NCBI RefSeq assembly: GCF_003367075.2
Contig: NZ_CP065936.1
Coordinates: forward strand, 2,850,001 to 2,882,000
DNA: 32,000 nucleotides
Origin: Cylindrospermopsis raciborskii Cr2010
GTDB taxonomy: Bacteria; Cyanobacteriota; Cyanobacteriia; Cyanobacteriales; Nostocaceae
Direction of reading: 5' to 3'
The position numbers and the translations under genes were made by a program. The notes beneath the pieces were generated by a model. The model was given only the letters and a program-made list of their open reading frames with translations. It was not told the DNA's origin and made no database searches. This document shows positions 21,391-32,000 of this stretch, piece after piece (position 1 is the stretch's first letter; every line of letters begins with the position of its first letter).

Positions 21391-21405
21391 AAGGGGAGGA
21401 TGAGA

Positions 21406-21528
21406 TTAATGTGCAGAACCGTTGCCATGATAATTTTCCGAATCATAGAATCCATTTTGAGTGCCAAAAAATAGGCAAGCCACGGTGAATATAAAAGTTA
21501 GTATTACCAGAATTAACTTGACATCCAT
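21406..21528 (-). CDS. Candidate 40-aa single-pass membrane protein (below the ORF-track cutoff)
   Basis: ATG at 21528 to TAA at 21406 gives MDVKLILVILTFIFTVACLFFGTQNGFYDSENYHGNGSAH. It has one clear hydrophobic helix and a polar tail. It ends 15 nt before the beta-CASP gene start on the same strand. Confidence 0.35.
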   Translation of the reverse strand: MDVKLILVILTFIFTVACLFFGTQNGFYDSENYHGNGSAH

Positions 21529-21616
21529 TATGTTACCCTACTTTAACCTTTAAGCTACACAACTTATGCTGGCATTATATTAACCTATATTATCGCAAAA
21601 CTGGGTTTAAAACTCC

Positions 21617-22153
21617 TTAAAAAATAATTTCTTTATCTCCCTGGGTAAAACGAACATCTTTAATGTTCCACTCTGGTTTACTGGTGAGGGTTTTGCGAAT
21701 ACTACCAAAGAGGGCAAACTGCTCACAACTAGAAAGGGAAGCAATTTGACGACTAGAGTCTGGAGCTACTCGCAGATCAATTGTCGCTATCCCATTAGAG
21801 ATATCTAAACGATAGCTAACTATGCTAAAATCAGAACTATTTTGCTGCTCCAGGATTTTGCCTATGCTTTGGTCAAGGATCTGGTCTGGTGATAACCTGA
21901 CCACCTGGGGAATATAATCTTGACATTGGGCATCACTCGTGTATAGGGTAACCGGGATATTTTTATCAGTGTTACTAAGGGACTGAGAACTGGTATCTGG
22001 AGACGGTGGAGGGGAAAAGGGTTGAGAGGTGGGGGAAGGTTTGGCAGGGTCTGGCAAATTTCTGGGAGTACAACTGCTGACCGTGCCCACTACAATTAAT
22101 AATATGGGTAATGGCAGTACAGTTAAAATATCACTTGATAAACTGAGCTTCAT
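21617..22153 (-). CDS. Lipoprotein with Pro/Ser-rich linker and GerMN-like domain
   Basis: Signal peptide plus lipobox (GTVSSC), a PS-rich linker, then VTLYTSD...IPQVVRL...LDQSIGKIL...IATIDL..., which resembles GerMN domains. Confidence 0.6.
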   Translation of the reverse strand: MKLSLSSDILTVLPLPILLIVVGTVSSCTPRNLPDPAKPSPTSQPFSPPPSPDTSSQSLSNTDKNIPVTLYTSDAQCQDYIPQVVRLSPDQILDQSIGKILEQQNSSDFSIVSYRLDISNGIATIDLRVAPDSSRQIASLSSCEQFALFGSIRKTLTSKPEWNIKDVRFTQGDKEIIF

Positions 22154-22221
22154 AGTAGTGATGACCCTTATTAATTCTTAATTAAACAACAAATGCGTTT
22201 GTAAGTAATGGTAATTGATCC

Positions 22222-23067
22222 ATGGTAAGACCACAAAAACAGTTTGCTCAACATTGGTTAAGAAGTGAAAAAGCACTAAACTCCATTGTTAAAGCTGCTG
22301 AATGTCAAGTAAATGATAGGATTTTAGAAATTGGTCCGGGAACCGGAATTCTCACTAAGCGGTTGCTACCCTTAGTTGATTCCTTGCTAGCAGTAGAAAT
22401 TGATCGAGACCTGTGTGAACTACTGGCCAAAAAACTGGGTGCAAGAGAAAACTTTTTACTTCTCCAGGGTGATTTTCTCACTCTTGGTATAGCATCTCAA
22501 GTGACCGCTTTTCCTAAATTCCAAAGACAAAATAAAGTGGTTGCCAATATTCCCTACAATATTACAGGTCCAATTATCGAAAAACTTTTGGGTACTATTG
22601 CTGATCCTAATCCCCAACCCTTTGATTCCATTGTATTACTTATCCAAAAGGAGGTGGCACAAAGACTATATGCTAAACCCGGTTCCAGAAATTTTGGAGC
22701 CCTATCTGTGAGAGTACAGTATTTAGCGGAATGCGAGTTCATCTGTACAGTCCCCGCCAGTGCATTTTATCCACCGCCAAAAGTAGATTCTGCGGTAGTG
22801 CGTTTATTACCCAGAAATATAGAAATAGGAGCTAATGATCCTAAACTGTTGGAAAATATGGTTAAATTGGGGTTCGGGTGCAAACGAAAAATGCTCAGAA
22901 ATAATTTGCAATCAGTAATTGACCGTGAGTCCCTGACTAAATTACTGGAGGGATTAAACATTAATCCTCATGTTCGGGCGGAGGAAATCAGCGTATCTCA
23001 ATGGGTATCACTGGTTAATTCCCTGAATACAACGTCTTTGATGTCTGTTCATACTCAACCGAAATAA
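22222..23067 (+). CDS. rsmA: 16S rRNA (adenine1518/1519-N6)-dimethyltransferase
   Basis: PQKQFAQHWL N-terminus, SAM motif EIGPGTGILT and the catalytic NIPYNIT. Confidence 0.93.
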   Translation: MVRPQKQFAQHWLRSEKALNSIVKAAECQVNDRILEIGPGTGILTKRLLPLVDSLLAVEIDRDLCELLAKKLGARENFLLLQGDFLTLGIASQVTAFPKFQRQNKVVANIPYNITGPIIEKLLGTIADPNPQPFDSIVLLIQKEVAQRLYAKPGSRNFGALSVRVQYLAECEFICTVPASAFYPPPKVDSAVVRLLPRNIEIGANDPKLLENMVKLGFGCKRKMLRNNLQSVIDRESLTKLLEGLNINPHVRAEEISVSQWVSLVNSLNTTSLMSVHTQPK

Positions 23068-23089
23068 AATACTACTAAATAGTTATAAC

Positions 23090-24043
23090 ATGCGTCAATA
23101 CAGTTTAATTGCACCTGCAAAAATCAACCTATACTTAGAAATCATTGGTGCTCGTGCTGATGGCTATCATGAGTTAGCAATGATTTTACAAAGCATTAGT
23201 TTAGCAGACCAAATAGATTTACATGCAGCCAATACACAAACAATTAGAGTTTTTTGTGACCACCCTCAAATACCTACAGATGAAAGTAATTTAGCACACC
23301 GGGCAGCAGTGCTGATGGCCAGTAATTTTCCTACTGCTTTTAGTAACTTTGGTGGAGTTGATATTACAGTGAAAAAAAGGATTCCCGTAGCTGCAGGTTT
23401 AGCTGGGGGTTCCACAAATGCAGCAGCGGTGTTAGTAGGTATAGACCTACTTTGGGGTTTAGGATTAACTCAATCTCAATTGGAAGAATTAGGAGCAAAC
23501 CTGGGTTCAGACGTACCTTTTTGTATTGGTGGAGGAACAGCAATTGCTACTGGAAGGGGTGAGCAACTTTCTCCCCTTCCCAGTTTAAATAACATGTATT
23601 TAGTCTTAGCCAAATATAAAAGTTTAGCTGTGTCTACCCCCTGGGCCTATCAAACCTATCGTGAGCAATTTGGTGCCGAGTATATAAAAAATCATCAAGA
23701 CTTTACCCAGCGTACCAAAGCAGTTCATGCAGCAGAAATTGTCCAAGCCATTGCAGTTCAGGATCTAGGGGGAATTAGTCATAACCTGCACAATGATTTA
23801 GAAAAGGTTGTCTTACCAGCTTATCCCCAGGTTCTACAACTACGGGAACTATTTGCCAAACAACCAGAGGTTTTAGGAACAATGATGTCAGGCTCGGGAC
23901 CTTCAGTATTTGCTATTGTAGAATCAAAACAGGATGCTGAAACAGTTAAAGAAAAAATCACAGTAGCTATTAATAATAGTGATTTAGAATTGTTTGTAAC
24001 CCAAACAATTGGTCATGGCATCCAATTAGAAACCAGGCATTAA
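23090..24043 (+). CDS. ispE: 4-diphosphocytidyl-2-C-methyl-D-erythritol kinase
   Basis: APAKINLYLEI N-terminus and the GHMP-kinase motif PVAAGLAGGSTNAAAVL. The rsmA-ispE adjacency is common in bacteria. Confidence 0.93.
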   Translation: MRQYSLIAPAKINLYLEIIGARADGYHELAMILQSISLADQIDLHAANTQTIRVFCDHPQIPTDESNLAHRAAVLMASNFPTAFSNFGGVDITVKKRIPVAAGLAGGSTNAAAVLVGIDLLWGLGLTQSQLEELGANLGSDVPFCIGGGTAIATGRGEQLSPLPSLNNMYLVLAKYKSLAVSTPWAYQTYREQFGAEYIKNHQDFTQRTKAVHAAEIVQAIAVQDLGGISHNLHNDLEKVVLPAYPQVLQLRELFAKQPEVLGTMMSGSGPSVFAIVESKQDAETVKEKITVAINNSDLELFVTQTIGHGIQLETRH

Positions 24044-24069
24044 AATTAGTTTAGAAAAAGGAGAGAATT

Positions 24070-24372
24070 ATGAAAGAACCGTTAAAATCCGCACAGGATA
24101 CGAACGCTCCACCAACACCATTAAGATGTATAACTGGAGCAACAATTTCCGGGGGACTGGCTTTTGCCATGTATTCCCTAATGATTGCTATAGCTACTAC
24201 CTTTGCTAGTAAACCCATTCATTCCGATAACCAAATAGTTATTAATATTGCCTCCGCAGTTCGTACCTTAGTGGTAGGTGTGGTAGCTTTGGGAATGGGA
24301 ATTTTTAGCATAGTGGCCATAGGTTTATTGGCTTTAGCTATCCAGTTATTAATCCAAGGGAAAAATAGTTAA
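24070..24372 (+). CDS. Small two-helix membrane protein (DUF3082-like, cyanobacteria/plastid lineage)
   Basis: 100 aa with AGGAGA 8 nt upstream of the ATG. Two predicted TM helices flank SKPIHSDNQIVINIASAVRTLVVG. The family name is from memory only. Confidence 0.6.
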   Translation: MKEPLKSAQDTNAPPTPLRCITGATISGGLAFAMYSLMIAIATTFASKPIHSDNQIVINIASAVRTLVVGVVALGMGIFSIVAIGLLALAIQLLIQGKNS

Positions 24373-25203
24373 AGATTTGGGTAAATTGGTGGAACTTATG
24401 CCTTTTTGGGTACAAACATGAGACAATTGGTGTTGTTTTCTCCACATCTTTGGTGATAGACTTTGATACTGACTAAACTGCCTAGAAAAATGACAACAAT
24501 TTTGATAGCCAATTTTCGTGCCAATCTCTTCAATTGTTAAAGCAGTGTTTTTTAATAAAAAGCAGGCTTGGGTTATTCTACGTTTGACTATCCAGCTATT
24601 GACACTATTTCCTGTCTGTTGAGATACTTGGTTGGTCAAATAAGCTGGAGAGTAACCTACAGCTTGTGCAACATCGGATAAAGTAATGCCTAAGTGGTAA
24701 TGACTTTCAATATAGTCAAAAACCTTTTGAAAATGGGGAATATTAGGAAATACTAAAGGTAGATTGTTTGGTTTGGGTGTTATGGGGGAGTTGTTATTGA
24801 TATACCAAGATTTCATGAGAGACTGTTTTTCTAATCTGATATGGATGGCTTTTAGCAGTTCGTTAATTGTGATGGGTCTGGTCAAATAATCATCAGCACC
24901 TAATTCCATAGCCTTTCTCAGAGCTGCTTTGGAATTATTGGCGGAAAGAAAAATAAATGGCATGATTGCTAACTGGGAATTTTGACGCAATTCAGTTAAA
25001 ATGGTATAACCATCCATATCTGGCATAATCAACTCGCAAATAACTATGTCAGGTAGGTTTTCCATTGCCTTGTGAAGACCAAGGCCACCGGTTTCTGCTG
25101 CTATGATGGCAAAACCTTCAGCTTTCAGAGATTCCAATAAAAGATTTTGCATTAAATAGTCATCTTCAATTAGCAGAATTTTTTTTGATGCTTCAGCTGT
25201 CAT
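24349..25203 (-). CDS. Response-regulator-like transcription factor: atypical receiver (E57, R109) + AraC-type HTH
   Basis: The REC domain (KKILLIEDD...PDIVICELIMPDMDG...FLSAN...GADDYLTRP) is followed by an AraC/XylS dual HTH (ITLSDVAQAVGYSPAYLTNQVSQQTG...IEEIGTKIGYQNCCHFSRQFSQ). The listed start at 25209 is TTG; the ATG at 25203 is used for numbering. Confidence 0.85.
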   Translation of the reverse strand: MTAEASKKILLIEDDYLMQNLLLESLKAEGFAIIAAETGGLGLHKAMENLPDIVICELIMPDMDGYTILTELRQNSQLAIMPFIFLSANNSKAALRKAMELGADDYLTRPITINELLKAIHIRLEKQSLMKSWYINNNSPITPKPNNLPLVFPNIPHFQKVFDYIESHYHLGITLSDVAQAVGYSPAYLTNQVSQQTGNSVNSWIVKRRITQACFLLKNTALTIEEIGTKIGYQNCCHFSRQFSQYQSLSPKMWRKQHQLSHVCTQKGISSTNLPKSLTIFPLD

Positions 25204-25250
25204 TTTCAACGAATATAATTTTTTAAAAACTTGTGACTGTGAATAGAATA

Positions 25251-26330
25251 TTAAAAATTGAATTGTCTTGGCAAGGATTGTAAAACAATAGTGAATGTGG
25301 TACCCATACCCAATTCACTAGTTATTATGATTTGACCCTCACATAGATCCACCAGAGTCTTAACAATTGATAAACCAAGCCCGGTACCAGAAGTTTGACC
25401 AACATTATGACCTCGATAGAATTTTTCAAATAGTCTATCTTGATCCACCTGGGCAATGCCAATACCTTGATCTTTAACTTTCAAAATGATTTGCTCATCT
25501 TCATTTTCAATTAAAAGATGGACAATAGTCTTATCAGATGAATATTTAATGGCATTATCTAGTAAGTTGGTCAAAATTGCTTCTATTATGTGGGGATCTA
25601 TCCATACTTGCTTACAGTCTCCCAGATAATCAAACTGAATTGACCTGCCATTTTTAATTAGGGTCATTTTTTGGACTAAATTCTCACAAAACTCAATCAA
25701 ATTTACCTGGATCGGTGAGATAATTGCTTGGGAATATTTGGTCTTACTTAAAAATAAAATGTCATCCAATATGTGATCAATTTGTTTTACCGCTGTTTCA
25801 ATGTGTCCAACAAGCGACAACATTTTTTCTTCTTCCCATTGATGAATATTTCGTTTAAGTAGACTGTTGGAAAAAGAAATAATATTGAGGGGTGTGCGAA
25901 ATTCATGGCAGAGTATGGGCACTAACTCTTGTGTATTTTCTTTGATAACTCCATAACAAAACTCACTTTCTTGTAATTGAATATAGGCAAAATCTATTGT
26001 TGCTACAAATGTTCTTCCCCCCTTGGTGCGATAGCGAGATTTCCAAGACAGACCTTCCACATTTTTGAGATTTTCCCATTTTTGCAACCATTTATTCAGG
26101 GAAAAATCTATATCCAAATTACTTAGATTCATAGATAGCAACTCTTGATGCGAATATTCCATAATAGCGGACATGGACTTATTTGTATAAATAAAGTCTC
26201 CATTATTTTTGACACAAAAAGCAGCATCTATGATTTGATTAATCAGAAACTCGACAAGTTTATCCTTCATGGAAGGATAGTTTAATTGATAATTGATTTT
26301 CTCTAGCATGGAACCCCGACAATTCATCAT
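25251..26330 (-). CDS. Soluble PAS-domain sensor histidine kinase
   Basis: No TM segment. One PAS-like domain (DAAFCVKNNGDFIYTNKSMSAIMEYSHQELL...). H-box CHEFRTPLN, N-box LLDNAIKYS, G1 DQGIGI, F LFEKFYRG and G2 GTGLGLSIV are all present. AGGAG lies 9 nt upstream of the ATG at 26330. Confidence 0.88.
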   Translation of the reverse strand: MMNCRGSMLEKINYQLNYPSMKDKLVEFLINQIIDAAFCVKNNGDFIYTNKSMSAIMEYSHQELLSMNLSNLDIDFSLNKWLQKWENLKNVEGLSWKSRYRTKGGRTFVATIDFAYIQLQESEFCYGVIKENTQELVPILCHEFRTPLNIISFSNSLLKRNIHQWEEEKMLSLVGHIETAVKQIDHILDDILFLSKTKYSQAIISPIQVNLIEFCENLVQKMTLIKNGRSIQFDYLGDCKQVWIDPHIIEAILTNLLDNAIKYSSDKTIVHLLIENEDEQIILKVKDQGIGIAQVDQDRLFEKFYRGHNVGQTSGTGLGLSIVKTLVDLCEGQIIITSELGMGTTFTIVLQSLPRQFNF

Positions 26331-26490
26331 CTTTATTTACTCCTGAGTCTTTACAGCGTATAAAAGTATATAGACTGCCACAGTTAATTTACAGCTGGTT
26401 GTATAGATTTAAATACCCGCAAATACTGAATTTTTGGCATCAATTGTGTACCAAGCGTTCCGATCTAAGTAGGGAGGCACAATTATTTGT

Positions 26491-26578
26491 AGGATGGGTC
26501 GAGTAACAAGACCCATGCGGGTGTTGGGTTTCATACTTCAACCCAACCTACGTTCATCTTATATTTAATTCCATCCAT
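26491..26578 (+). repeat. Dispersed double-hairpin repeat, copy A (MITE-like, no coding capacity)
   Basis: TAGGATGGGTC-loop-GACCCAT then GTTGGGTT-loop-AACCCAAC, followed by CTACGTTCAT and TTTAATTCCA. It matches the reverse complement of 28203-28290. The same type of repeat is common in Nostocales genomes as far as I recall. Confidence 0.8.
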
Positions 26579-26708
26579 TGTTTGTCATTACCAACTAAGA
26601 TGGGAAATACCTTATGTATAGACCTCACCAACTTCAATCTTAGGAAGTTTTTGTAATCTCCCATCAAGGGGATTCAACTATATTTCCAGAAGGTAAATCA
26701 TCCTACTA

Positions 26709-26737
26709 TTGACATAATTAACCATTAGACATAGTTT
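26709..26737 (+). promoter_or_regulatory. Candidate sigma70-type promoter facing the hetP-like/trpC-like pair
   Basis: TTGACA (26709-26714), a 17-nt spacer, then TAGTTT (26732-26737). This would give a ~255-nt leader before the ATG at 26999. It is a sequence match only. Confidence 0.25.
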
Positions 26738-26998
26738 GGGGATCATCCGTCATCTAACTAAAGAAGTATTAGTTGTAAAGATTGTAAGTATTTGGGAATA
26801 CAATTATTGATTAATGACAGATACCAAGGTAACACCGAAAAAATAGACAAGTCCATCTAAAAATAGTTCATTTATTTCTCAGTTAAATTGAGTATCCTGA
26901 AGACATTGATCAATGGGATAATAGATGAAATAAACCTGATGGCGTGTTAAATCATCTCTTCGACCATAGATTGATGTCAGAAATTAGGAGTGCATACT

Positions 26999-27253
26999 AT
27001 GAAAGGACAGTTAGATGATTATAATAGGCAGATTAATAAGAAAATCAATACGGATCAAATAGAGCAAATAATCAAGGCAATTATAGCTGGTAAATATTCT
27101 TGGGCTTGTGTTTTGCTGCTGAGATTTTCGGGACTTAACCCCATTGACTACATACCATACCGCACTTATATCAGATTGCTGAAAAATAACTATTTACTAG
27201 GTGGCTCTGGGCAAAATCAACCAAGCAAAAAAGAAGTGGAAATAATGTGTTAA
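26999..27253 (+). CDS. HetP-like small protein (HetP-family N-terminal domain only)
   Basis: AGGAG lies 8 nt upstream of the ATG at 26999 (the listed start at 26990 is GTG). The core IIAGKYSWACVLLLRFSGLNPIDYIPYRTYIRLLKNN matches my recollection of the conserved HetP/HetP-homolog domain (..GKYSWACVL.LRF.GYNP..YIPYRTYNRL..). Confidence 0.6.
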   Translation: MKGQLDDYNRQINKKINTDQIEQIIKAIIAGKYSWACVLLLRFSGLNPIDYIPYRTYIRLLKNNYLLGGSGQNQPSKKEVEIMC

Positions 27254-27265
27254 TTCATTCTACCT

Positions 27266-28126
27266 ATGATCATGCTACAGAACACAATGGAACCTATAAT
27301 CAGAGAAATTATATGGCACAAAAAACTAGAGATTACCCAAATTCAACAGGAAATGTCTCTTGCTTCTCTCCAACGTCAATTAACTGCTGCTCCTAGTGTG
27401 AGAGATTTTTTCACTGCTTTGCAACAAAACATTTACAAACCCAGTTTAATTGCAGAAGTGAAAAGGATATTTTCATCCGAGAATATACTTTCATCTGATT
27501 TTGATGCTTTGTCTATTGCTAAATCCTATGAACGAACTGGGGCAGCTTGTATATCTGTTGTGACAGATCAGAAATTCTTTCATGGTGGGTTTGATCAGCT
27601 ACGCATTGTTCGACATAAAGTCACTTTACCTATTCTATGTAAAGATTTTGTTCTGGATCCATGTCAAATTTACTTAGCACGAGCAGCAGGAGCAGATGCA
27701 ATCTTATTAATTGCCGCCATTCTCACGGATCAGCAAATTAATAACCTTTTACGGGTAATTCATTATTTAGGAATGAATGCTGTGGTCGAAGTTCATAATT
27801 TGATGGAGTTAGACCGTGTTATTAGGTTAGAGGATGTGCGTATTATTGCCATTAATAATCGCAGTTTGGAGGATTTAACTGTTAATATCAACACTACTCT
27901 GGAGTTAATGGCTGCCAGAAAATCACACCTACATAATTTGGGGATTTTGGTGGTAAGTGAGTCAGGAATTGAGACGTCTCAAGATTTATCCTTGATGGCT
28001 AATGTTGGTGTTAGTGGGGTATTAATAGGAGATTGTTTACTGCGAGAAGAAAATTTAGAGGACGCAGTGAAAGAGTTGTTAAAATCCCAAATTTATGGTT
28101 TTGGTGGTCCCAGTTATAAAAGTTAA
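27266..28126 (+). CDS. Divergent indole-3-glycerol-phosphate synthase (TrpC) paralog
   Basis: IGPS-type TIM barrel with IIWHKKLEI, LIAEVK, ISVVTDQKFF, LCKDF, VVEVH, INNRSL and VSESG. The beta1-alpha1 loop reads KRIFSSEN instead of the usual K(K/R)ASPSKG, and LIGES reads LIGDC. It starts 12 nt after the hetP-like stop. Confidence 0.8.
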   Translation: MIMLQNTMEPIIREIIWHKKLEITQIQQEMSLASLQRQLTAAPSVRDFFTALQQNIYKPSLIAEVKRIFSSENILSSDFDALSIAKSYERTGAACISVVTDQKFFHGGFDQLRIVRHKVTLPILCKDFVLDPCQIYLARAAGADAILLIAAILTDQQINNLLRVIHYLGMNAVVEVHNLMELDRVIRLEDVRIIAINNRSLEDLTVNINTTLELMAARKSHLHNLGILVVSESGIETSQDLSLMANVGVSGVLIGDCLLREENLEDAVKELLKSQIYGFGGPSYKS

Positions 28127-28133
28127 TCAAGCC

Positions 28134-28172
28134 AGCTCCTAAACTTGCACAAGAGGTGAAGGAGCTTTTTTT
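28134..28172 (+). terminator. Intrinsic terminator after the trpC-like gene
   Basis: Stem AGCTCCT (28134-28140) / AGGAGCT (28160-28166) with an inner CTTG..CAAG pairing, followed by a 7-T run (28166-28172). Confidence 0.7.
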
Positions 28173-28202
28173 ACTTAAGAAAGATAAATAAATAGGATAA
28201 GT

Positions 28203-28290
28203 GGGTGAGTGGAATTAAACATGAACGTAGGTTGGGTTGAGGAACGAAACCCAACGCCCCCATGGGTTACCCTACCGCTAACCCATCCTA
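28203..28290 (-). repeat. Dispersed double-hairpin repeat, copy B (inverted relative to copy A)
   Basis: The reverse complement reads TAGGATGGGTTA-loop-TAACCCAT, GTTGGGTT-loop-AACCCAAC, CTACGTTCAT and G-TTTAATTCCA. The outer end (CTA at 28288-28290) supplies the TAG stop of the decarboxylase gene. Confidence 0.8.
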
Positions 28291-29760
28291 TTTAACAACT
28301 TTAAGGGTATGACAACTTGCATCCAAACAACCTGTAATCACTCCTCCTAAATCCTGCACCTGCTGTAAATAATCTAGGGCTGATTTTGTAATTCTTTCTC
28401 CTGGCATTAATATTGGTATTCCTGGAGGATATGGACAGATATTTTCTGCACAAATTCTATCCACCGTCTTTTCTAAAGGTAGAATTTCACTTGTGGCAAA
28501 AAAAGCCTCACGGGGAGAAATGACCAACCTATTATCTGGCTGATAATTAAATATTATCTTAGAGATGATGTTGGAGGTGCTCATCTCATATTTTCTACAT
28601 CTGGGTATATCATTGATTTTTTTAAAAACTTTTACCAAGGCATTAATATCTAATTCATTATTTCCTAAACTAATAATAAATGTAACATTCTCAAAAGAAG
28701 AAACCTCCGGTACAATACCCATTTCAATTAGAAAATTTTCTGTGGTAAAACCCGTGATACCTAATTCTTTTACATTCACGGTTAATCGAGTTTTATCCAG
28801 ATCAAAAAAGCCTGGTTGCCTAATTTTTGGCAATTCTAAAACTGATAAACCAGGAATTTCTCGAATTTTATTTCTGGCTATATTTGCTAGTTCTAGGGTT
28901 TGCTGCATCAAATTTTGACCATCTATAGCCATTTGCTGACGTGCTGCATCAAGAGAAGCTAAAAGTATAAAACTCGGACTTGTAGATTGTACTAATTGTA
29001 GAGCTTGATTTAATCTATCAATGTTAATTCTATTTCCCTGAATATGTAACATTGATGTTTGGGTCATGGAGCCCAGGGTTTTATGAGTAGATTGTATGGT
29101 TAAATCCGCACCTGCGGTTAAGGCGGATATGGGTAAATTATCATGAAAGTTAAGATGGGCACCATGAGCTTCATCAACTATTAAAGGAATATTATGTTCA
29201 TGAGTAACTTGACAGATGGCTTTTAAATTGCCACAAACCCCATTGTAGGTTGGGTAAACCACTAATACAGCCTTAGCCTGGGGATGTTGAGCTAAAGCTA
29301 CCTCTAAGTCTTTAGGTGTAATACTACAAGTAATATCCAGATCTTGATCATACTGGGGATTGATAAAAATGGGAATGGCACCAGCTATAATCAATCCAGA
29401 AACCACAGATAAATGTATATTTCTGGGTAAAAGGATATGCTGATTTGGTTCACAAACGGTCATAATTGCTGCTATAATACCACAACTAGAGCCATTGACT
29501 AAAAACCAAGTTCTTTGAGCACCAAAGGCCATGGCGGCTAATTCTTGTGCTGCTAAAATTGCACTTTCAGGTGCGAATAAATTATCTAATTCTGATAGTT
29601 CGGTTAAATCGGCTCTAAATACGTCTTTACCAAGCAAATCGGTTAAAATGGGTGAGACTCCTGCACCCCGTTTATGTCCAGGAGTATAAAAGGGGGTATG
29701 GTTTTTGGATATGGAGGATTTTAAGGCATCAATTAGGGGACTTTGGCTTTGGTTCAACAT
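28288..29760 (-). CDS. PLP-dependent Orn/Lys/Arg decarboxylase family protein (Bacillus SpeA/YaaO-like)
   Basis: 490 aa with FYTPGHKRG near the N-terminus, DEAHGAH, and the PLP-lysine context QSTHKTLGSMTQTS, plus the C-terminal OKR_DC-type domain. Substrate cannot be told from sequence by eye. Confidence 0.85.
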   Translation of the reverse strand: MLNQSQSPLIDALKSSISKNHTPFYTPGHKRGAGVSPILTDLLGKDVFRADLTELSELDNLFAPESAILAAQELAAMAFGAQRTWFLVNGSSCGIIAAIMTVCEPNQHILLPRNIHLSVVSGLIIAGAIPIFINPQYDQDLDITCSITPKDLEVALAQHPQAKAVLVVYPTYNGVCGNLKAICQVTHEHNIPLIVDEAHGAHLNFHDNLPISALTAGADLTIQSTHKTLGSMTQTSMLHIQGNRINIDRLNQALQLVQSTSPSFILLASLDAARQQMAIDGQNLMQQTLELANIARNKIREIPGLSVLELPKIRQPGFFDLDKTRLTVNVKELGITGFTTENFLIEMGIVPEVSSFENVTFIISLGNNELDINALVKVFKKINDIPRCRKYEMSTSNIISKIIFNYQPDNRLVISPREAFFATSEILPLEKTVDRICAENICPYPPGIPILMPGERITKSALDYLQQVQDLGGVITGCLDASCHTLKVVK

Positions 29761-29897
29761 CGAAGATCTCTCTCAAGTTAAAAAATCAACAAATCGTCAA
29801 TCTAATCTGGGAAAATAGTGTTAATTTATATGGAGGTATTCCCGATTTTTCTGCATTTGTTCATGAAATCTGCTACATCTTTGATGATAATATCGCC

Positions 29898-30914
29898 ATG
29901 AATGCGCATCTAGGATCTGCTGTGCTAAATTCTGCAAGTTTAACCATGCACCCAGTCACCACAGGAGTGACTGACAACCAACGTCTGCGATTATTTTCTG
30001 GATCGTCCAATATCCAATTAGCTCAGGAAGTCTCACGCTACTTGGGCCTGGACTTGGGCCCCATGATCCGCAAAAGATTTGCGGATGGTGAGTTGTATAT
30101 TCAAATTCAAGAGTCTATTCGCGGTTGTGATGTTTATTTAATTCAACCAACTTGTAAGCCAGTTAATGACCATTTAATGGAATTACTAATCATAATTGAT
30201 GCCTGCCGTCGTGCTTCTGCTAGACAGATTACGGCAGTGGTTCCTTATTATGGTTACGCCCGTGCGGATCGAAAAACCGCCGGGAGAGAGTCCATTACTG
30301 CTAAATTGGTTGCTAACCTAATTACCCAAGCAGGGGCTAATCGAGTCCTGGCTATGGATCTACATGCGGCACAAATCCAGGGGTACTTTGATATACCCTT
30401 TGATCATGTTTATGGTTCGCCAGTCTTACTGGAGTACCTACAGAATAAAGCACTACAAGATATTGTTGTGGTTTCTCCTGATGTGGGTGGGGTAGCTCGA
30501 GCTAGAGCATTTGCTAAAAAACTCAATGATGCTCCCCTGGCAATAATTGATAAACGTCGTCAGGCTCATAATGTAGCTGAAGTTCTGAATGTGATTGGGG
30601 ATGTGAAGGGCAAAACGGCTGTTTTAGTCGATGATATGATTGATACGGGAGGTACTATTACTCAGGGAGCAAAGTTACTCCGAGAAGAAGGTGCTAGTCA
30701 AGTATATGCTTGTGCCACCCATGCAGTATTTTCACCACCAGCTATTGAACGTCTTTCCAGTGGGTTGTTTGAGGAGGTGATAGTTACTAATACCATTCCT
30801 ATTTCTCCAGCAGATCAATTCCCCCAATTAGTAGTGCTTTCAGTTGCTAATTTGCTTGGGGAGGCCATTTGGCGTATTCATGAGGATACTTCCCTGAGTA
30901 GTTTATTCCGTTAA
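29898..30914 (+). CDS. prs: Ribose-phosphate pyrophosphokinase (PRPP synthetase)
   Basis: LRLFSGSSN, FADGELYIQIQESIRG, DLHAAQIQGYF, VVSPDVGGVARARAF and VLVDDMIDTGGTI. The listed start at 29652 overlaps the divergent decarboxylase gene. The ATG at 29898 gives a typical ~338-aa cyanobacterial Prs. Confidence 0.93.
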   Translation: MNAHLGSAVLNSASLTMHPVTTGVTDNQRLRLFSGSSNIQLAQEVSRYLGLDLGPMIRKRFADGELYIQIQESIRGCDVYLIQPTCKPVNDHLMELLIIIDACRRASARQITAVVPYYGYARADRKTAGRESITAKLVANLITQAGANRVLAMDLHAAQIQGYFDIPFDHVYGSPVLLEYLQNKALQDIVVVSPDVGGVARARAFAKKLNDAPLAIIDKRRQAHNVAEVLNVIGDVKGKTAVLVDDMIDTGGTITQGAKLLREEGASQVYACATHAVFSPPAIERLSSGLFEEVIVTNTIPISPADQFPQLVVLSVANLLGEAIWRIHEDTSLSSLFR

Positions 30915-30999
30915 CTGAGATAGTTGATAGTAGTATTATCTAAAATAGTAAGTTAGTAGCTTGACTTTCCCGTTTCTATAGTAAGGTATAGGTATAACC

Positions 31000-31458
31000 A
31001 TGTCTAAAACTGTTGCCCAGGTGATGACCCATAATCCGATTATGGTTAATCCTCAAACTCCTTTAAAACAGGCAATCCAAATCTTGGCTGAGAAGCAAAT
31101 TAGCGGGTTGCCTGTGGTTGATGATATGGGTAAGTTGGTCGGGATTATCTCAGAAACGGATCTAATGTGGCAAGAAACAGGAATTACTCCTCCTGCATAC
31201 ATTATGTTTTTGGATAGTGTGATTTACTTACAAAACCCTGCTACTTACGAACGGGATTTACACAAAGCTCTGGGACAAACTGTGGGGGAAGTGATGAGTA
31301 ACAATCCGATCACTATTAGTCCTGATCAGTCTTTGAAAACAGCAGCAAAAATTATCCAGGACCAAAAGGTTCGTCGTCTCCCCGTGGTTGATGATGCTGG
31401 TACTGTAATTGGTATTCTGACCCGTGGTGATATTATTCGCACTATGGCATGCGATTGA
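31000..31458 (+). CDS. CBS-domain pair protein
   Basis: 152 aa with two CBS repeats (VMTHNPIMV...ISGLPVVDDMGKLVGIISETD and VMSNNPITI...VRRLPVVDDAGTVIGILTRGD). Confidence 0.85.
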   Translation: MSKTVAQVMTHNPIMVNPQTPLKQAIQILAEKQISGLPVVDDMGKLVGIISETDLMWQETGITPPAYIMFLDSVIYLQNPATYERDLHKALGQTVGEVMSNNPITISPDQSLKTAAKIIQDQKVRRLPVVDDAGTVIGILTRGDIIRTMACD

Positions 31459-31466
31459 TTGTTGTT

Positions 31467-32000
31467 TTAATTGTTTGCTTCCAGCAATCGGGAGGTTTGA
31501 AATCTATCCATCCACTTTTCCAAGTACACTAAATTGGCTATCTGTTCACTGGGATCCCCTGTATCTATGGCATAGGGCATTAATCCTAGAATAGCTGCAG
31601 TTGTCACACAAAACATGGACTTTTGAAAGCTGATACAGATTTGCACCAGCAAGTCATCTTCACCTCTCAAACTGTGACGGTAAATCTGATGGAGGTACTC
31701 GGGTAGATAATGGCGCATGTCATGCATTAATAATGTGGGTGGAACACCTGAACCACCAATAGGTAGAGGATCCGCATATAAAGCACCATATTCAAATTTG
31801 GCCTGGTCTGGGGGAACCTGATATGCTTGAGCGTTTAGGGACACTGTTCCTAAAAAGGGTGTGCCTCGGAAAAATACCGCTTCTACGTAGGGAATGGCTG
31901 TGTCGGCCAAGAATGTTAATCCCATGGACTTAGGAATAATATCATAAACTTGCTCCCGAATTTTTACTTGGTAGGTGATTGGTTTTAGGGCATCTTTGAC
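31467..32000 (-). CDS. Conserved cyanobacterial protein, probably CO2-hydration protein ChpX/CupB family; N-terminal part outside window
   Basis: The frame stays open beyond the listed Met to the window edge (VKDALKPITYQVKIREQVYDIIPKSMGLTFLADTAIPYVE...YGALYADPLPIGGSGVPPTLLMHDMRHYLPEYL). The ChpXY assignment is from memory of that family and is not secure. Confidence 0.45.
   Translation of the reverse strand, partial: VKDALKPITYQVKIREQVYDIIPKSMGLTFLADTAIPYVEAVFFRGTPFLGTVSLNAQAYQVPPDQAKFEYGALYADPLPIGGSGVPPTLLMHDMRHYLPEYLHQIYRHSLRGEDDLLVQICISFQKSMFCVTTAAILGLMPYAIDTGDPSEQIANLVYLEKWMDRFQTSRLLEANN

What the first reader, a model, noticed from the sequence alone, without database searches (positions are those of the whole stretch)
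24349..29760. AT-rich, HIP1-free accessory block between ispE-side and prs-side housekeeping genes
Hand-counted GC in 60-nt samples inside the block is low: 15/60 (25501-25560), 17/60 (25741-25800), 22/60 (25261-25320), 20/60 (27301-27360) and 21/60 (28561-28620). Samples outside are higher: 33/60 in cphA (15481-15540) and 31/60 in prs (30241-30300). The five genes here are a PAS kinase, a REC-AraC regulator, a HetP-like ORF, a TrpC-like ORF and a PLP decarboxylase, which are signalling or accessory in character. Both flanks are core metabolism. The central gene pair is bracketed by inverted copies of a hairpin repeat. I know of no described module combining a PAS kinase, a pseudo-receiver AraC regulator, a HetP-family peptide and an IGPS-like enzyme. 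It could be a developmental (heterocyst-commitment) or indole/aromatic-metabolite-responsive cassette.
Basis: partly seen in the sequence, partly recalled or inferred. Interest (0 to 1): 0.7.

Follow-up and report, generated by a model that had tools for sequence, protein, structure and literature searches.

The report
Sunscreen-operon relic carrying a heterocyst gene
The AT-rich block is not foreign DNA but an old, vertically inherited leftover of the cyanobacterial scytonemin (sunscreen) operon, keeping its regulators, one promoter and one tryptophan-pathway gene, and it now carries a gene of the HetP family, which controls when cells commit to becoming nitrogen-fixing heterocysts.

Summary
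The block has 35.8% GC against 42.4% outside, no HIP1 site, the five named genes and an inverted repeat pair. The window is Cylindrospermopsis raciborskii.

The "foreign accessory island" reading fails:
- Synonymous codon usage is native, and the AT-richness comes from amino-acid composition.
- The same block is AT-richer than its flank in 32 of 32 related Nostocales loci.
- Gene order is conserved across genera.
- Both repeat copies are recent small insertions, missing from a sister strain.
- The HIP1-free stretch also covers the core flanks.
- The decarboxylase is a separate neighbour.

The kinase, regulator, hetP-like gene and trpC-like gene descend from the scytonemin operon:
- Two Nostoc-type genomes hold scyABC at exactly this site.
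- The regulator is about 70% identical to scytonemin regulators.
- The TrpC-like family is closest to scytonemin-operon TrpC, with moderate support.
- A 17-nt promoter box has 48 hits in 1.9 Mb. All lie upstream of hetP-like, scyA or scytonemin trpE.
- One relative keeps a trpE pseudogene between the box and hetP-like.

In Cylindrospermopsis the input is degenerate. The regulator's phospho-acceptor Asp is Glu, and the kinase has lost two PAS domains.

Control of hetP-like by the regulator is inferred, not shown.

The parts
24349..25203 (-). REC-AraC response regulator of the scytonemin-regulator family. In this genus it is a pseudo-receiver: the phospho-acceptor Asp is Glu (codon 25033-25035), and the conserved Lys is Arg in this strain.
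   Evidence: Pfam Response_reg + HTH_18/HTH_AraC. About 70% identity between regulators at this site and regulators of intact scy operons, interleaved in a tree; the window's own copy is 53-55% identical to scy-operon regulators. All 38 positional orthologues and 3 scy-operon regulators have Asp and TKP. All 8 Cylindrospermopsis assemblies have Glu. dN/dS 0.69 against strain L084, from 5 synonymous and 13 non-synonymous differences.
25251..26330 (-). Truncated scytonemin-type sensor histidine kinase (359 aa): N-terminal PAS fused 5 residues before the phospho-His. PAS2, PAS3 and the linker are deleted.
   Evidence: Best NCBIfam match is NF045595, scytonemin biosynthesis sensor HK, at 357 bits (cut-off 865). 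Positional orthologues score 665-830 bits, and the copy beside scyA in L045 scores 1137. Alignment shows the deletions. H box, N box, G1 and G2 motifs read directly from the sequence. dN/dS 0.22.
26468..26569 (+). Copy 1 of a roughly 100-nt hairpin-forming MITE-like repeat, a recent insertion
   Evidence: Inverted pair found. Cleanly absent from strain L084 (CP060822.1). Folds at -29.1 kcal/mol, z -2.4.
26693..26801 (+). Two GTA-N8-TAC (NtcA-consensus) motifs, at 26693-26706 and 26788-26801, in the kinase/hetP-like spacer
   Evidence: 2 of the window's 6 matches fall in this 659-nt spacer. In PCC 7120 an NtcA ChIP peak with GTAACCAAATATAC lies between all3232 and alr3233 (PMC3898017). Consensus match only. 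The second site is GTG in L084.
26843..26902 (+). Scytonemin-operon-type promoter box (ATAGACAAGTCCATCTAAAAATAGTTCATTTATTT, 26843-26877) plus a second conserved block (AAATTGAGTATCCTGAAG, 26885-26902), 144 nt upstream of hetP-like
   Evidence: The core pattern ATCWAARRATWNWTCAT has 48 hits in 1.92 Mb of held sequence, against about 0.16 expected. All lie upstream of hetP-like, scyA or scy-operon trpE, in the orientation of the downstream gene. Alignment A3 shows about 85 homologous columns with the trpE upstream region of intact scy operons.
26999..27253 (+). hetP-like gene (84 aa), matching Anabaena/Nostoc PCC 7120 alr3234 by gene order
   Evidence: NF037966 HetP_family 110 bits. Homologues are named HetP family heterocyst commitment protein. 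Same order RR / hetP-like / TrpC as all3232 / alr3234 / alr3235 in the literature. Conserved RBS region GGAGTGCATACTATG. Identical in the divergent strain L084.
27287..28126 (+). TrpC-like (IGPS fold) paralogue, closest to the scytonemin-operon TrpC copy. It matches alr3235 by gene order.
   Evidence: PF00218 and NF001372 matches. 57% identical to scy-operon TrpC, against 50% and 46% to two cyanobacterial representatives of unknown locus that carry the canonical IGPS motifs. The family at this site is monophyletic (100%) and groups with the scy copies (51%), or with the scy copies plus P0362 (79%). Catalytic E, K, K, E, N, R, E and S are kept here, but the canonical KKASPSKG loop reads KRIFSSEN. 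Catalytic residues are lost in sister lineages.
28134..28172 (+). Terminator-like hairpin followed by a T7 run, ending the hetP-like/trpC-like unit
   Evidence: Sequence read. Fold -14.2 kcal/mol. Conserved in L084. Not picked up by the pattern scan because the loop is long.
28185..28287 (-). Copy 2 of the MITE-like repeat, inverted relative to copy 1, a recent insertion
   Evidence: Absent from L084.
28288..29760 (-). PLP-dependent Orn/Lys/Arg-type decarboxylase. It is a neighbour, not part of the unit.
   Evidence: PF01276 270 bits. Adjacent only in the closest relatives. It is retained directly after DUF3082 in L041, where the four-gene unit is absent. dN/dS 0.15.

Best explanation
The core of the block, 24349-28172, is a vertically inherited derivative of the scytonemin (indole-alkaloid sunscreen) operon. 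It is not an acquired island.

What survives of the operon:
- its divergently transcribed two-component regulators, an AraC-output response regulator and a PAS kinase;
- the promoter box and leader that in intact operons precede the internal trpE-trpC sub-operon;
- the trpC copy, now drifting away from a canonical indole-3-glycerol-phosphate synthase.

A HetP-family gene sits between that promoter and trpC, where trpE used to be. By gene order it is the counterpart of PCC 7120 alr3234, which delays heterocyst commitment.

Likely mechanism (inferred): the AraC-type regulator acts at the conserved box to drive the hetP-like/trpC-like transcript, which ends at the terminator at 28134-28172. NtcA may add nitrogen control.

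In Cylindrospermopsis the sensory input has decayed. The regulator's phospho-acceptor Asp is fixed as Glu, which would make it a phosphorylation-independent and possibly constitutively active-like receiver. The kinase has lost two of three PAS domains.

The low GC follows from Ile/Asn/Lys/Phe/Tyr-rich, fast-evolving regulatory proteins and an AT-rich regulatory spacer. This property is shared by every orthologous locus examined.

The PLP decarboxylase and the two MITE-like repeats are bystanders.
For: SHOWN

1. Source and conservation. The window is Cylindrospermopsis raciborskii: TrpC is 100% identical to P0121. The same gene order occurs in 8 assemblies. ksgA-ispE-DUF3082-RR-[HK]-hetP-like-trpC-like recurs in Sphaerospermopsis, Anabaena, Dolichospermum, Trichormus, Nodularia, Nostoc, Halotia, Cronbergia and Komarekiella.

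2. Native composition. Codon-usage z is -0.8 to +0.9 for the four genes. FYMINK residues make up 27-41% against about 23% elsewhere. GC1 and GC2 carry the deficit. The block is AT-richer than ksgA-ispE in 32 of 32 loci, by 6.8 points on average.

3. Same chromosomal site as the scytonemin operon. In L045 and L097, DUF3082-RR-HK is followed by scyA (1126 bits, cut-off 1020), scyB (674, cut-off 600), scyC (609, cut-off 400) and scyD/E. The kinase there scores 1137 bits against a cut-off of 865.

4. Regulators.
- L045's regulator diverges from the other regulators at this site as expected for an orthologue: the RR-minus-IspE identity gap is -12.3, against -13.0 +/- 4.2 for all pairs.
- Regulators of scy operons at other loci are about 70% identical to regulators at this site and interleave with them in the tree. 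The window's own copy is 53-55% identical to them.
- Kinases at this site score 665-830 bits on the scytonemin-kinase model.

5. TrpC-like family. Its nearest relatives are TrpC of intact scy operons. They share the N-terminal signature EVAQMQQE..L.SLQ.QL.AAP.VR.FLTALQQ.

6. Cis element. ATCWAARRATWNWTCAT has 48 hits in 1.92 Mb. All lie upstream of hetP-like, scyA or scy-operon trpE. Homology of the hetP-like leader with the trpE leader extends over about 85 columns.

7. Intermediate form. Nostoc sp. HK-01 (L124) carries a trpE pseudogene between the box and hetP-like: scytonemin-type TrpE residues 1-85 and 227-294, E 1e-20 and 2e-22, with in-frame stops. PCC 7120 is annotated all3232 (RR), alr3233 (TrpE), alr3234 (HetP-like), alr3235 (TrpC).

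8. Linkage. 30 of 33 RR-bearing loci carry hetP-like and trpC-like, and 0 of 37 RR-less loci do.

9. Degenerate input. Glu at the acceptor in all 8 Cylindrospermopsis assemblies, against Asp in 41 relatives. Kinase deletions are shown. Regulator dN/dS is 0.69.

FROM THE LITERATURE
- alr3234 delays commitment and is a target of the sRNA NsiR1.4 (PMC9045159).
- alr3234 and alr3235 fall in protein clusters restricted to heterocyst formers, and alr3235 is expressed only after nitrogen step-down (PMC4365693).
- An NtcA ChIP peak lies upstream of all3232/alr3233 (PMC3898017).
- Npun_F1278 is required for scyA induction (PMC7997468, citing Naurin 2016).
- Remnant scytonemin operons and supernumerary trp copies are described in PMC6529634.
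Against: - No transcript or binding data exist for this organism, so the regulatory link from regulator to box to hetP-like is inference.
- No ScyA-F pseudogene trace was found in the window or in 17 orthologous spacers (tblastn, E <= 1). In-place deletion of the core therefore cannot be told apart from duplication or recombination between paralogous cassettes.
- Several genomes (Nostoc MG11, by first-hand loci; Nostoc B(2019) and Nodularia, by protein hits or the literature) have both an intact scy operon elsewhere and this unit. The unit is thus at least sometimes a paralogue, not the sole remnant.
- Grouping of the TrpC-like family with scytonemin TrpC has only 51% bootstrap support, rising to 79% when P0362 is included.
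- hetP-like and trpC-like can persist without an adjacent regulator (L123), and the regulator can persist without them (L013, L018).
- Intact scy operons have no hetP-like gene between trpE and trpC.
- I did not retrieve the PCC 7120 locus itself. Correspondence with alr3234/alr3235 rests on gene order reported in papers and on a PCC 7120-like relative whose HetP-like starts MYQ.
- I could not establish whether this genome has another trpC.
Confidence: 0.7

Rival explanations
1. The block is a horizontally acquired accessory island inserted between ispE-side and prs-side core genes. This is the reading implied by the first reader.
For: GC is 6.6 points lower than the rest of the window and there is no HIP1 site. 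The unit is present or absent among Nostocales, for example absent in many lichen Nostoc, Fischerella and one Sphaerospermopsis. Inverted repeats flank the central pair.
Against: Synonymous codon usage is native. The GC deficit is at codon positions 1 and 2. The AT-richness is shared by 32 of 32 orthologous loci. Synteny holds across genera and in all 8 Cylindrospermopsis assemblies. There is no tRNA, integrase or transposase. The HIP1-free stretch includes core flanks. The repeats are absent from strain L084 while the genes stay in place.
Confidence: 0.03
2. The unit is a decaying, functionally uncoupled relic. The regulator and kinase are on their way to loss, hetP-like has its own control, and adjacency is historical only.
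For: The kinase is truncated, split or absent in many lineages. The regulator in this genus has lost its acceptor Asp and has dN/dS 0.69. hetP-like and trpC-like occur without an adjacent regulator in L123. The regulator occurs alone in L013 and L018. In PCC 7120 alr3234 is controlled post-transcriptionally by NsiR1 (PMC9045159).
Against: The regulator ORF is intact in 38 of 39 positional orthologues, with the DNA-binding domain conserved. The box and its orientation are conserved upstream of hetP-like in essentially all loci. The three genes are strongly linked. The kinase in this genus is still under purifying selection, dN/dS 0.22.
Confidence: 0.2
3. The trpC gene here is simply the organism's working indole-3-glycerol-phosphate synthase, that is, core tryptophan metabolism. 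It happens to lie beside a developmental gene, so the block is a mix of core and regulatory genes with no special unit.
For: It passes the NCBIfam TrpC subfamily cut-off (387 against 370) and Pfam IGPS. In the window all catalytic residues align with E. coli and Pseudomonas IGPS. The genome is small, and I could not show a second trpC.
Against: The whole family at this locus lacks the conserved KKASPSKG loop. Sister lineages have lost the catalytic Glu (E to Q), the Arg of INNR and sometimes the Lys of CKDF. Its closest relatives are the dedicated scytonemin-operon copies. It lacks the N-terminal extension of canonical cyanobacterial TrpC. alr3235 forms a cluster restricted to heterocyst formers and is expressed only after nitrogen step-down (PMC4365693). 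Genomes without the unit must obtain TrpC elsewhere.
Confidence: 0.12
4. The inverted hairpin repeats define a composite mobile element that carries hetP-like and trpC-like.
For: The two copies are the only ones in the window, are inverted, and bracket exactly these two genes. hetP-like and trpC-like are nearly identical (1 difference in 1095 nt) between strains whose neighbouring genes differ by 2-6%.
Against: Strain L084 has the two genes at the same place with neither repeat copy. The pair is syntenic across genera without these repeats. The low-divergence tract starts inside the repeats, at about 26850, and similar patches occur elsewhere, for example the CBS gene at 99.8%. This fits ordinary homologous recombination.
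Confidence: 0.03

Closest known systems
Scytonemin two-component regulators (Nostoc punctiforme Npun_F1277 kinase and Npun_F1278 AraC-type response regulator) and their operon
   Same: Same protein families: NF045595 is the best kinase match, and regulators at this site are about 70% identical to regulators of intact scy operons (the window's own copy 53-55%). Same layout, with regulators divergent from a target operon. Same chromosomal site as the scy operon in L045 and L097. The same promoter box lies upstream of the target genes.
   Different: No scyA-F, ebo or other aromatic amino-acid genes are present. The target is hetP-like plus trpC-like. The kinase scores below the family cut-off and lacks two PAS domains. 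The regulator has Glu instead of the phospho-acceptor Asp.
Remnant scytonemin operons and supernumerary aromatic amino-acid gene copies (Garcia-Pichel et al. 2019, PMC6529634)
   Same: A trp gene copy closest to the scytonemin clade persists without the core genes. A trpE pseudogene occurs in a relative.
   Different: That paper does not mention this locus, Cylindrospermopsis or PCC 7120. Here the remnant keeps the regulators and a promoter, is conserved across many genera, and has gained a developmental gene.
HetP family: HetP and its homologues Asl1930, Alr2902 and Alr3234 of Anabaena PCC 7120
   Same: Family membership (NF037966, PF28069). Same neighbours as alr3234: a two-component regulator upstream and TrpC downstream. 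Conserved translation-initiation region, which is where NsiR1.4 pairs in PCC 7120.
   Different: Function is untested in Cylindrospermopsis, which forms only terminal heterocysts (my own knowledge). The long leader with a terminator-like hairpin found in other genera is deleted here.
Indole-3-glycerol-phosphate synthase (TrpC)
   Same: Full-length IGPS fold match. Catalytic residues are retained in this genome.
   Different: The substrate-loop motif is lost in the whole family. Catalytic residues are eroded in sister lineages. The family is restricted to heterocyst formers and linked to hetP-like.
Phosphorylation-independent (pseudo- or atypical) receiver domains, and Asp-to-Glu phosphomimetic response regulators
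   Same: The acceptor Asp is replaced by Glu, with the acidic pocket (EDD) retained.
   Different: The change is confined to one genus within an otherwise canonical family. The activity state is unknown.
Cyanobacterial miniature inverted-repeat elements (small dispersed repeats)
   Same: About 100 nt, hairpin-forming, intergenic, with presence or absence differing between strains.
   Different: The family was not identified by name. Only two copies are seen in the window and one similar core in Nostoc minutum.

Membership tests
Horizontally acquired genomic island | Atypical synonymous codon usage or GC3 relative to the host | tested here: not met
   Codon-usage distance z is -0.8 to +0.9 for RR, HK, hetP-like and trpC-like. 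GC3 is 0.29-0.35, against 0.255 in flanking ispE. The reference is the window only, not the whole genome.
Horizontally acquired genomic island | Mobility genes, or a tRNA or direct-repeat boundary | tested here: not met
   No tRNA. No integrase or transposase ORF. The flanking repeats are recent and absent from L084.
Horizontally acquired genomic island | Absent from close relatives at the same site | tested here: not met
   Present in all 8 Cylindrospermopsis assemblies and in most Nostocaceae at the same site.
Scytonemin biosynthesis sensor histidine kinase (NCBIfam NF045595, equivalog) | Whole-protein score at or above the curated cut-off of 865 bits | tested here: not met
   Window kinase 356.6 bits. 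Positional orthologues 665-830 bits. Kinase beside scyA in L045 1137 bits.
Scytonemin biosynthesis sensor histidine kinase (NCBIfam NF045595, equivalog) | Encoded next to scyA-F | tested here: not met
   No Scy protein match in the block (tblastn, E <= 1). This is met at the same chromosomal site in L045 and L097.
Scytonemin operon remnant | Genes whose closest relatives are scytonemin-operon copies rather than housekeeping copies | tested here: inconclusive
   The TrpC-like family is 64-66% identical to scy-operon TrpC, against 58% and 50% to two cyanobacterial representatives of unknown locus. The clade has 51% bootstrap, or 79% with P0362. No verified housekeeping Nostocales TrpC was available.
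Scytonemin operon remnant | Shared non-coding regulatory DNA with the intact operon | tested here: met
   The box and leader are homologous with the scy-operon trpE upstream region. All 48 pattern hits fall in these contexts.
Scytonemin operon remnant | Traces of lost operon genes | tested here: met
   Met in a relative, not in the window. A trpE pseudogene lies between the box and hetP-like in L124. No trace was found in the window.
HetP family (NF037966 / PF28069) | Profile score above the cut-off over the conserved HetP domain | tested here: met
   109.7 bits against a cut-off of 45, covering residues 10-67. Homologues carry PF28069.
HetP family (NF037966 / PF28069) | Role in heterocyst commitment | not testable with these tools
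   Shown only for PCC 7120 alr3234, by mutants cited in PMC9045159.
Indole-3-glycerol-phosphate synthase TrpC | IGPS profile match above the cut-off | tested here: met
   PF00218 247 bits. NF001372 387 bits against a cut-off of 370.
Indole-3-glycerol-phosphate synthase TrpC | Catalytic residues (E, K of ExK; K of CKDF; E of EVH; N and R of INNR; E and S of SESG) | tested here: met
   All are present in the window by alignment to E. coli 1PII and P. aeruginosa 6Y88. They are lost in several sister lineages.
Indole-3-glycerol-phosphate synthase TrpC | Conserved K-K-A-S-P-S-K-G substrate loop | tested here: not met
   KRIFSSEN in the window. The loop is degenerate in all 33 family members but intact in scy-operon and canonical copies.
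Indole-3-glycerol-phosphate synthase TrpC | Enzymatic activity | not testable with these tools
   Needs complementation or an enzyme assay.
Canonical (phosphorylatable) response regulator | Phospho-acceptor Asp at the end of beta-3 | tested here: not met
   Glu (GAG, 25033-25035) in all 8 Cylindrospermopsis assemblies. Asp in 41 relatives.
Canonical (phosphorylatable) response regulator | Conserved Lys after beta-5 | tested here: not met
   Arg in the window (TRP). The position is polymorphic, Lys or Arg, among strains.

The most novel reading that the evidence does not exclude
Circuitry of the UV-sunscreen (scytonemin) operon was rewired into developmental control in heterocystous cyanobacteria. 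A scytonemin-type light or UVA-responsive two-component system, acting through the shared promoter box, would set the level of the commitment-delaying HetP-like protein (Alr3234 family). This would couple light or UV stress, or indole-metabolite status, to the timing of heterocyst commitment. The co-transcribed TrpC-like protein, whose catalytic motifs erode in several lineages, would act as a ligand-binding pseudoenzyme or partner rather than as a tryptophan-pathway enzyme. In Cylindrospermopsis an Asp-to-Glu regulator would have made the circuit constitutive.
Probability: 0.2. Interest if true: 0.75.

Novelty: new variant of a known kind. Interest (0 to 1): 0.5.

Why it matters
As first posed, an AT-rich foreign island, the finding is ordinary and is explained by native composition.

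What lies underneath is more useful. alr3234 is one of only four HetP-family genes in the model Anabaena, yet its transcriptional control is little known. This analysis places it behind a promoter box shared with scyA and with scytonemin-operon trpE, next to a regulator of the scytonemin family.

That yields direct experiments:
- delete all3232 or mutate the box, then measure alr3234/alr3235 expression and commitment timing;
- test UVA induction.

It also provides:
- a candidate binding site or promoter motif for the scytonemin regulator, whose DNA target has not been defined (PMC7997468);
- a widely conserved example of a scytonemin-operon remnant that was kept and reused rather than lost;
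- a TrpC-like family that may be a pseudoenzyme.

Tried and rejected
- Rfam at gathering thresholds, on the window and on four related loci: no family matched.
- tRNA scan: none found.
- Promoter and terminator pattern scan of the block: no more promoter-like sites than in shuffles. It missed the trpC terminator because of its long loop.
- tblastn with ScyA-F against the block and 17 orthologous spacers: nothing at E <= 1.
- tblastn with scy-operon TrpE, AroB, TyrA and TrpA against 92 loci and the window: no remnant at this site. The only trace is in L124 and L123.
- Six-frame reading of the long spacers: AT-rich, stop-filled and non-coding. I skipped a Pfam search on them.
- Videau et al. 2016 (PMC5111671) is not held in the library.
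- The representative search gave cyanobacterial and plant TrpC but no organism labels, so it could not settle whether Cylindrospermopsis has a second trpC. Nor could it show whether P0362 is a housekeeping or a scytonemin-type copy.
- A first bootstrap run timed out and was replaced by a faster neighbour-joining run.
- RNAalifold did not predict the long-range leader hairpin. I tested that hairpin by explicit pair counting instead.
- Treating the PLP decarboxylase as part of the unit: rejected on synteny.
- Treating the repeats as structural boundaries of the unit: rejected because both are absent from L084.

Full report
**1. The observation**

All seven 60-nt GC counts are exact. The block 24349-29760 has GC 0.358, against 0.424 outside it. 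Every one of the five block genes has lower GC than every other ORF in the window.

HIP1 (GCGATCGC) occurs 13 times, and the last site is at 21051. The HIP1-free stretch is therefore 21052-32000. It includes ksgA, ispE, prs and the CBS gene, not just the block. From the left-hand density, 3.3 sites are expected in the block (P0 = 0.035).

The five genes are as described:
- a REC-AraC regulator;
- a PAS-HisKA-HATPase kinase;
- a HetP-family ORF, whose true start is ATG 26999 (84 aa);
- an IGPS/TrpC, annotated start 27287 (279 aa);
- an OKR_DC_1 PLP decarboxylase.

The regulator is indeed a pseudo-receiver, with Glu at the phospho-acceptor position. An inverted 55-nt repeat pair, 85% complementary, brackets hetP-like and trpC-like. 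These are the only two copies in the window.

**2. Where the window comes from, and whether the block is foreign**

TrpC is 100% identical to a Cylindrospermopsis protein. Eight Cylindrospermopsis assemblies carry the same gene order, from cphA to ccmK.

The low GC is not a foreign signature.
- Synonymous codon usage of the regulator, kinase, hetP-like and trpC-like genes matches the rest of the window (z -0.8 to +0.9).
- The deficit lies at codon positions 1 and 2: GC1 0.44 against 0.54, GC2 0.32 against 0.40.
- It reflects proteins rich in F, Y, M, I, N and K and poor in G, A, R and P.
- GC3 of flanking ispE (0.255) is lower than that of any block gene.

I fetched 80 Nostocales loci anchored on IspE.
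- The order ksgA-ispE-DUF3082-RR(-)-[HK(-)]-hetP-like(+)-trpC-like(+) recurs across many genera. It also appears in loci anchored on HetP-like proteins.
- In all 32 loci with the unit, it is AT-richer than ksgA-ispE, by 6.8 points on average. AT-richness is thus an inherited property of the locus.
- HIP1 does occur in the orthologous blocks, at 0.45 per kb against 0.63 per kb overall.

No tRNA, integrase or transposase is present.

**3. The repeats and the decarboxylase are bystanders**

The divergent strain L084 (CP060822.1) has the same genes in place but lacks both repeat copies, with clean gaps. They are recent MITE-like insertions of about 100 nt that fold into hairpins.

The decarboxylase is adjacent only in the closest relatives. 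In Sphaerospermopsis sp. SIO1G1 (L041) it follows DUF3082, separated only by one small ORF, while the four-gene unit is absent.

The prs side is not syntenic outside Cylindrospermopsis.

**4. The four central genes are a linked unit**

Of 70 loci with at least 6 kb after DUF3082:
- 30 have regulator + hetP-like + trpC-like;
- 37 have none of them;
- 3 have the regulator only.

The kinase is labile. It ranges from 659 aa where it sits beside scyA, to split by a frameshift in Nodularia and Trichormus, to 512-580 aa, 359 aa here, 260 aa, and absent in Dolichospermum and many Nostoc.

One PCC 7120-like genome (L123) has hetP-like and trpC-like detached from the regulator.

**5. What the unit is: a derivative of the scytonemin operon**

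*(a) Kinase family.* The kinase's best family is NF045595, the scytonemin biosynthesis sensor histidine kinase. The window copy scores 357 bits, below the cut-off of 865. Longer positional orthologues score 665-830 bits.

*(b) Same chromosomal site.* In two Nostoc-type genomes (L045, L097) the same site, ksgA-ispE-DUF3082-RR-HK, is followed by genuine scyA, scyB, scyC and scyD/E, and by a kinase scoring 1137 bits.

*(c) Regulator.* L045's regulator diverges from the other regulators at this site as an orthologue would. Regulators of scy operons located elsewhere (Nostoc MG11, Mastigocladopsis) are about 70% identical to regulators at this site and interleave with them in a tree. The window's own copy is 53-55% identical to them.

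*(d) TrpC.* A metagenome scan with ScyF gave intact operons that include their trpE-trpC region.
- Their TrpC is the closest relative of the family at this site: 64-66% mean identity, against 58% and 50% to two cyanobacterial representatives that carry the canonical motifs.
- Both share a distinctive N-terminal signature.
- Bootstrap support is 100% for the family, 51% for family plus scy copies, and 79% when P0362 is added.

*(e) A shared cis element.* This is the most telling point.
- A conserved box upstream of hetP-like (window 26843-26877) matches the most conserved element upstream of scyA.
About 0.16 are expected from composition.
- Every hit lies upstream of hetP-like, upstream of scyA (1-3 tandem copies), or about 200 nt upstream of trpE inside scy operons. 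Every hit is in the orientation of the downstream gene.
- The pattern was derived from some of these sequences. The trpE sites, the extra scyA copies and many loci were not used to derive it, and there are no hits anywhere else.
- Homology with the trpE upstream region extends over about 85 columns, including a second block, ATTGAGTAAGCTTAAnnAAGAA.

*(f) An intermediate form.* Nostoc sp. HK-01 (L124) carries a trpE pseudogene between the box and hetP-like. It matches scytonemin-type TrpE residues 1-85 and 227-294, with in-frame stops. This fits the PCC 7120 annotation: all3232 (two-component regulator), alr3233 (TrpE), alr3234 (HetP-like), alr3235 (TrpC).

The unit therefore reads: scytonemin regulators, then the trpE-type promoter and leader, then hetP-like in the place of trpE, then trpC-like.

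**6. Limits of the evolutionary reading**

- No ScyA-F traces remain in the spacers.
- Intact operons have no hetP-like gene between trpE and trpC.
- Nostoc MG11 has both an intact scy operon elsewhere and this unit. A protein hit for Nostoc B(2019) and the literature for Nodularia point the same way.
- I therefore cannot say whether this site is the ancestral home of the operon or holds an old partial duplicate. The L045/L097 arrangement could also have arisen by recombination between paralogous regulators.
- Either way, the parts share ancestry with the operon.

**7. State of the proteins in this genome**

*Regulator.*
- All 38 positional orthologues and three scy-operon regulators have the acceptor Asp and the conserved Lys.
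- All eight Cylindrospermopsis assemblies have Glu, and the Lys is polymorphic with Arg.
- Against L084, the regulator's dN/dS is 0.69, from small counts (5 synonymous, 13 non-synonymous). Flanking genes range from 0.04 to 0.23.

*Kinase.* It keeps the H, N, G1 and G2 boxes and the first PAS domain. It has lost PAS2, PAS3 and the linker, so PAS1 abuts the H box. Its dN/dS is 0.22.

*TrpC-like.*
- In the window, all catalytic residues align with solved IGPS structures.
- The conserved KKASPSKG loop reads KRIFSSEN, and that loop is degenerate in the whole family.
- Dolichospermum members have Gln for the catalytic Glu. Many members have Gln, Leu or His for the Arg of INNR.
- Scytonemin-operon copies keep the canonical motifs.
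- The family may therefore no longer be a conserved IGPS. Activity in this genome is open.

**8. Likely mechanism**

*Shown:*
- the shared box;
- the family of the neighbouring regulator;
- the linkage of the three genes;
- a terminator-like hairpin plus T-run after trpC-like, at 28134-28172;
- a 33-nt gap between hetP-like and trpC-like.

*From the literature:*
- the scytonemin regulator is required for scyA induction (PMC7997468);
- alr3234 delays commitment and is repressed by NsiR1.4 at its translation-initiation region (PMC9045159), a region conserved here;
- alr3235 is expressed only after nitrogen step-down (PMC4365693);
- NtcA binds upstream of all3232/alr3233 (PMC3898017).

*Seen here but only suggestive:* two of the window's six GTA-N8-TAC motifs lie in the 659-nt spacer.

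*Inferred:*
- the AraC-type regulator acts at the box to drive a hetP-like/trpC-like transcript;
- in Cylindrospermopsis the Glu substitution makes this independent of phosphorylation.

**9. Verdict**

- The island interpretation is not supported.
- The idea of a coherent signalling and developmental cassette with an indole connection is supported, and now has a concrete origin.
- The parts are known: scytonemin regulators, remnant scytonemin operons, the HetP homologue Alr3234. I found no paper making the connection between them, or describing the shared promoter box.
- I rate it a new variant of a known kind, of moderate interest. It is mainly useful as a testable lead on how alr3234-type genes are transcribed, and on the DNA target of the scytonemin regulator.

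Noticed in passing
window 26468-26569 and 28185-28287: A roughly 100-nt hairpin-forming repeat is present as an inverted pair in 7 of 8 Cylindrospermopsis assemblies. Both copies are cleanly absent from CP060822.1 (L084). It is a young MITE-like element. One similar core occurs in Nostoc minutum (L067:7581).
   Followed up: yes
window about 26850-28125: hetP-like (0 differences in 255 nt), trpC-like (1 in 840) and about 150 nt upstream are nearly identical between the window strain and L084, whereas neighbouring genes differ by 2-6% (dS 0.03-0.16). This is probably a recent homologous-recombination tract. The CBS gene (31000-31458) shows the same pattern.
   Followed up: partly
L002:14835-14965, L032:13519-13635, L063:15436-15565 and 12 other loci (alignment A4); the corresponding part is deleted in window 26903-26985: In other genera the leader between the box and hetP-like contains a conserved element of about 120 nt. 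It ends in a terminator-like hairpin plus a U-rich run (83.8% of cells paired against 30-54% in slid controls; 4 pairs with compensatory changes). It could be an attenuator or a small RNA. There is no Rfam match. Cylindrospermopsis lacks it.
   Followed up: partly
L045:10971-20194 and L097:1-8334: Two Nostoc-type genomes carry the scytonemin operon start (scyABC, plus scyD in L045) with its regulators directly beside DUF3082-ispE-ksgA. This is the same site that holds the hetP-like unit in other genomes.
   Followed up: yes
L124:6349-6839 (Nostoc sp. HK-01): A pseudogene of scytonemin-type trpE, with in-frame stops, lies between the promoter box and hetP-like. A fainter trace occurs in L123.
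   Followed up: yes
L099:1932/2056/2179, L100:2380/2502, L093:8767/8890: Upstream of scyA the box occurs as 2-3 tandem copies spaced about 123 nt apart. This suggests a repeated promoter or operator module.
   Followed up: no
L007, L009, L011, L014-L017, L022-L024 (Dolichospermum/Anabaena trpC-like genes): In these lineages the TrpC-like protein has Gln for the catalytic Glu (IQVHN) and Gln for the Arg of INNR, yet the ORFs stay intact. This is a candidate pseudoenzyme.
   Followed up: partly
L063:12287-14148; L091:6521-8526; L092:6064-8048: The kinase at this site is split into two ORFs by a frameshift in Trichormus sp. ATA11-4-KO1 and in two Nodularia assemblies.
   Followed up: no
window 24349-24372: The 3' ends of the DUF3082 gene (+) and the regulator gene (-) overlap by 24 nt, convergently.
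   Followed up: no
window 21052-32000: No HIP1 site occurs in the last 10.9 kb of the window, although 6.8 are expected from the first 21 kb. The depletion covers core genes as well as the block and remains unexplained.
   Followed up: partly
window 24349-25203, compared with L081-L088: The conserved receiver Lys is polymorphic within Cylindrospermopsis: TKP in 4 assemblies, TRP in the window and 4 others. The Asp-to-Glu change is fixed.
   Followed up: yes
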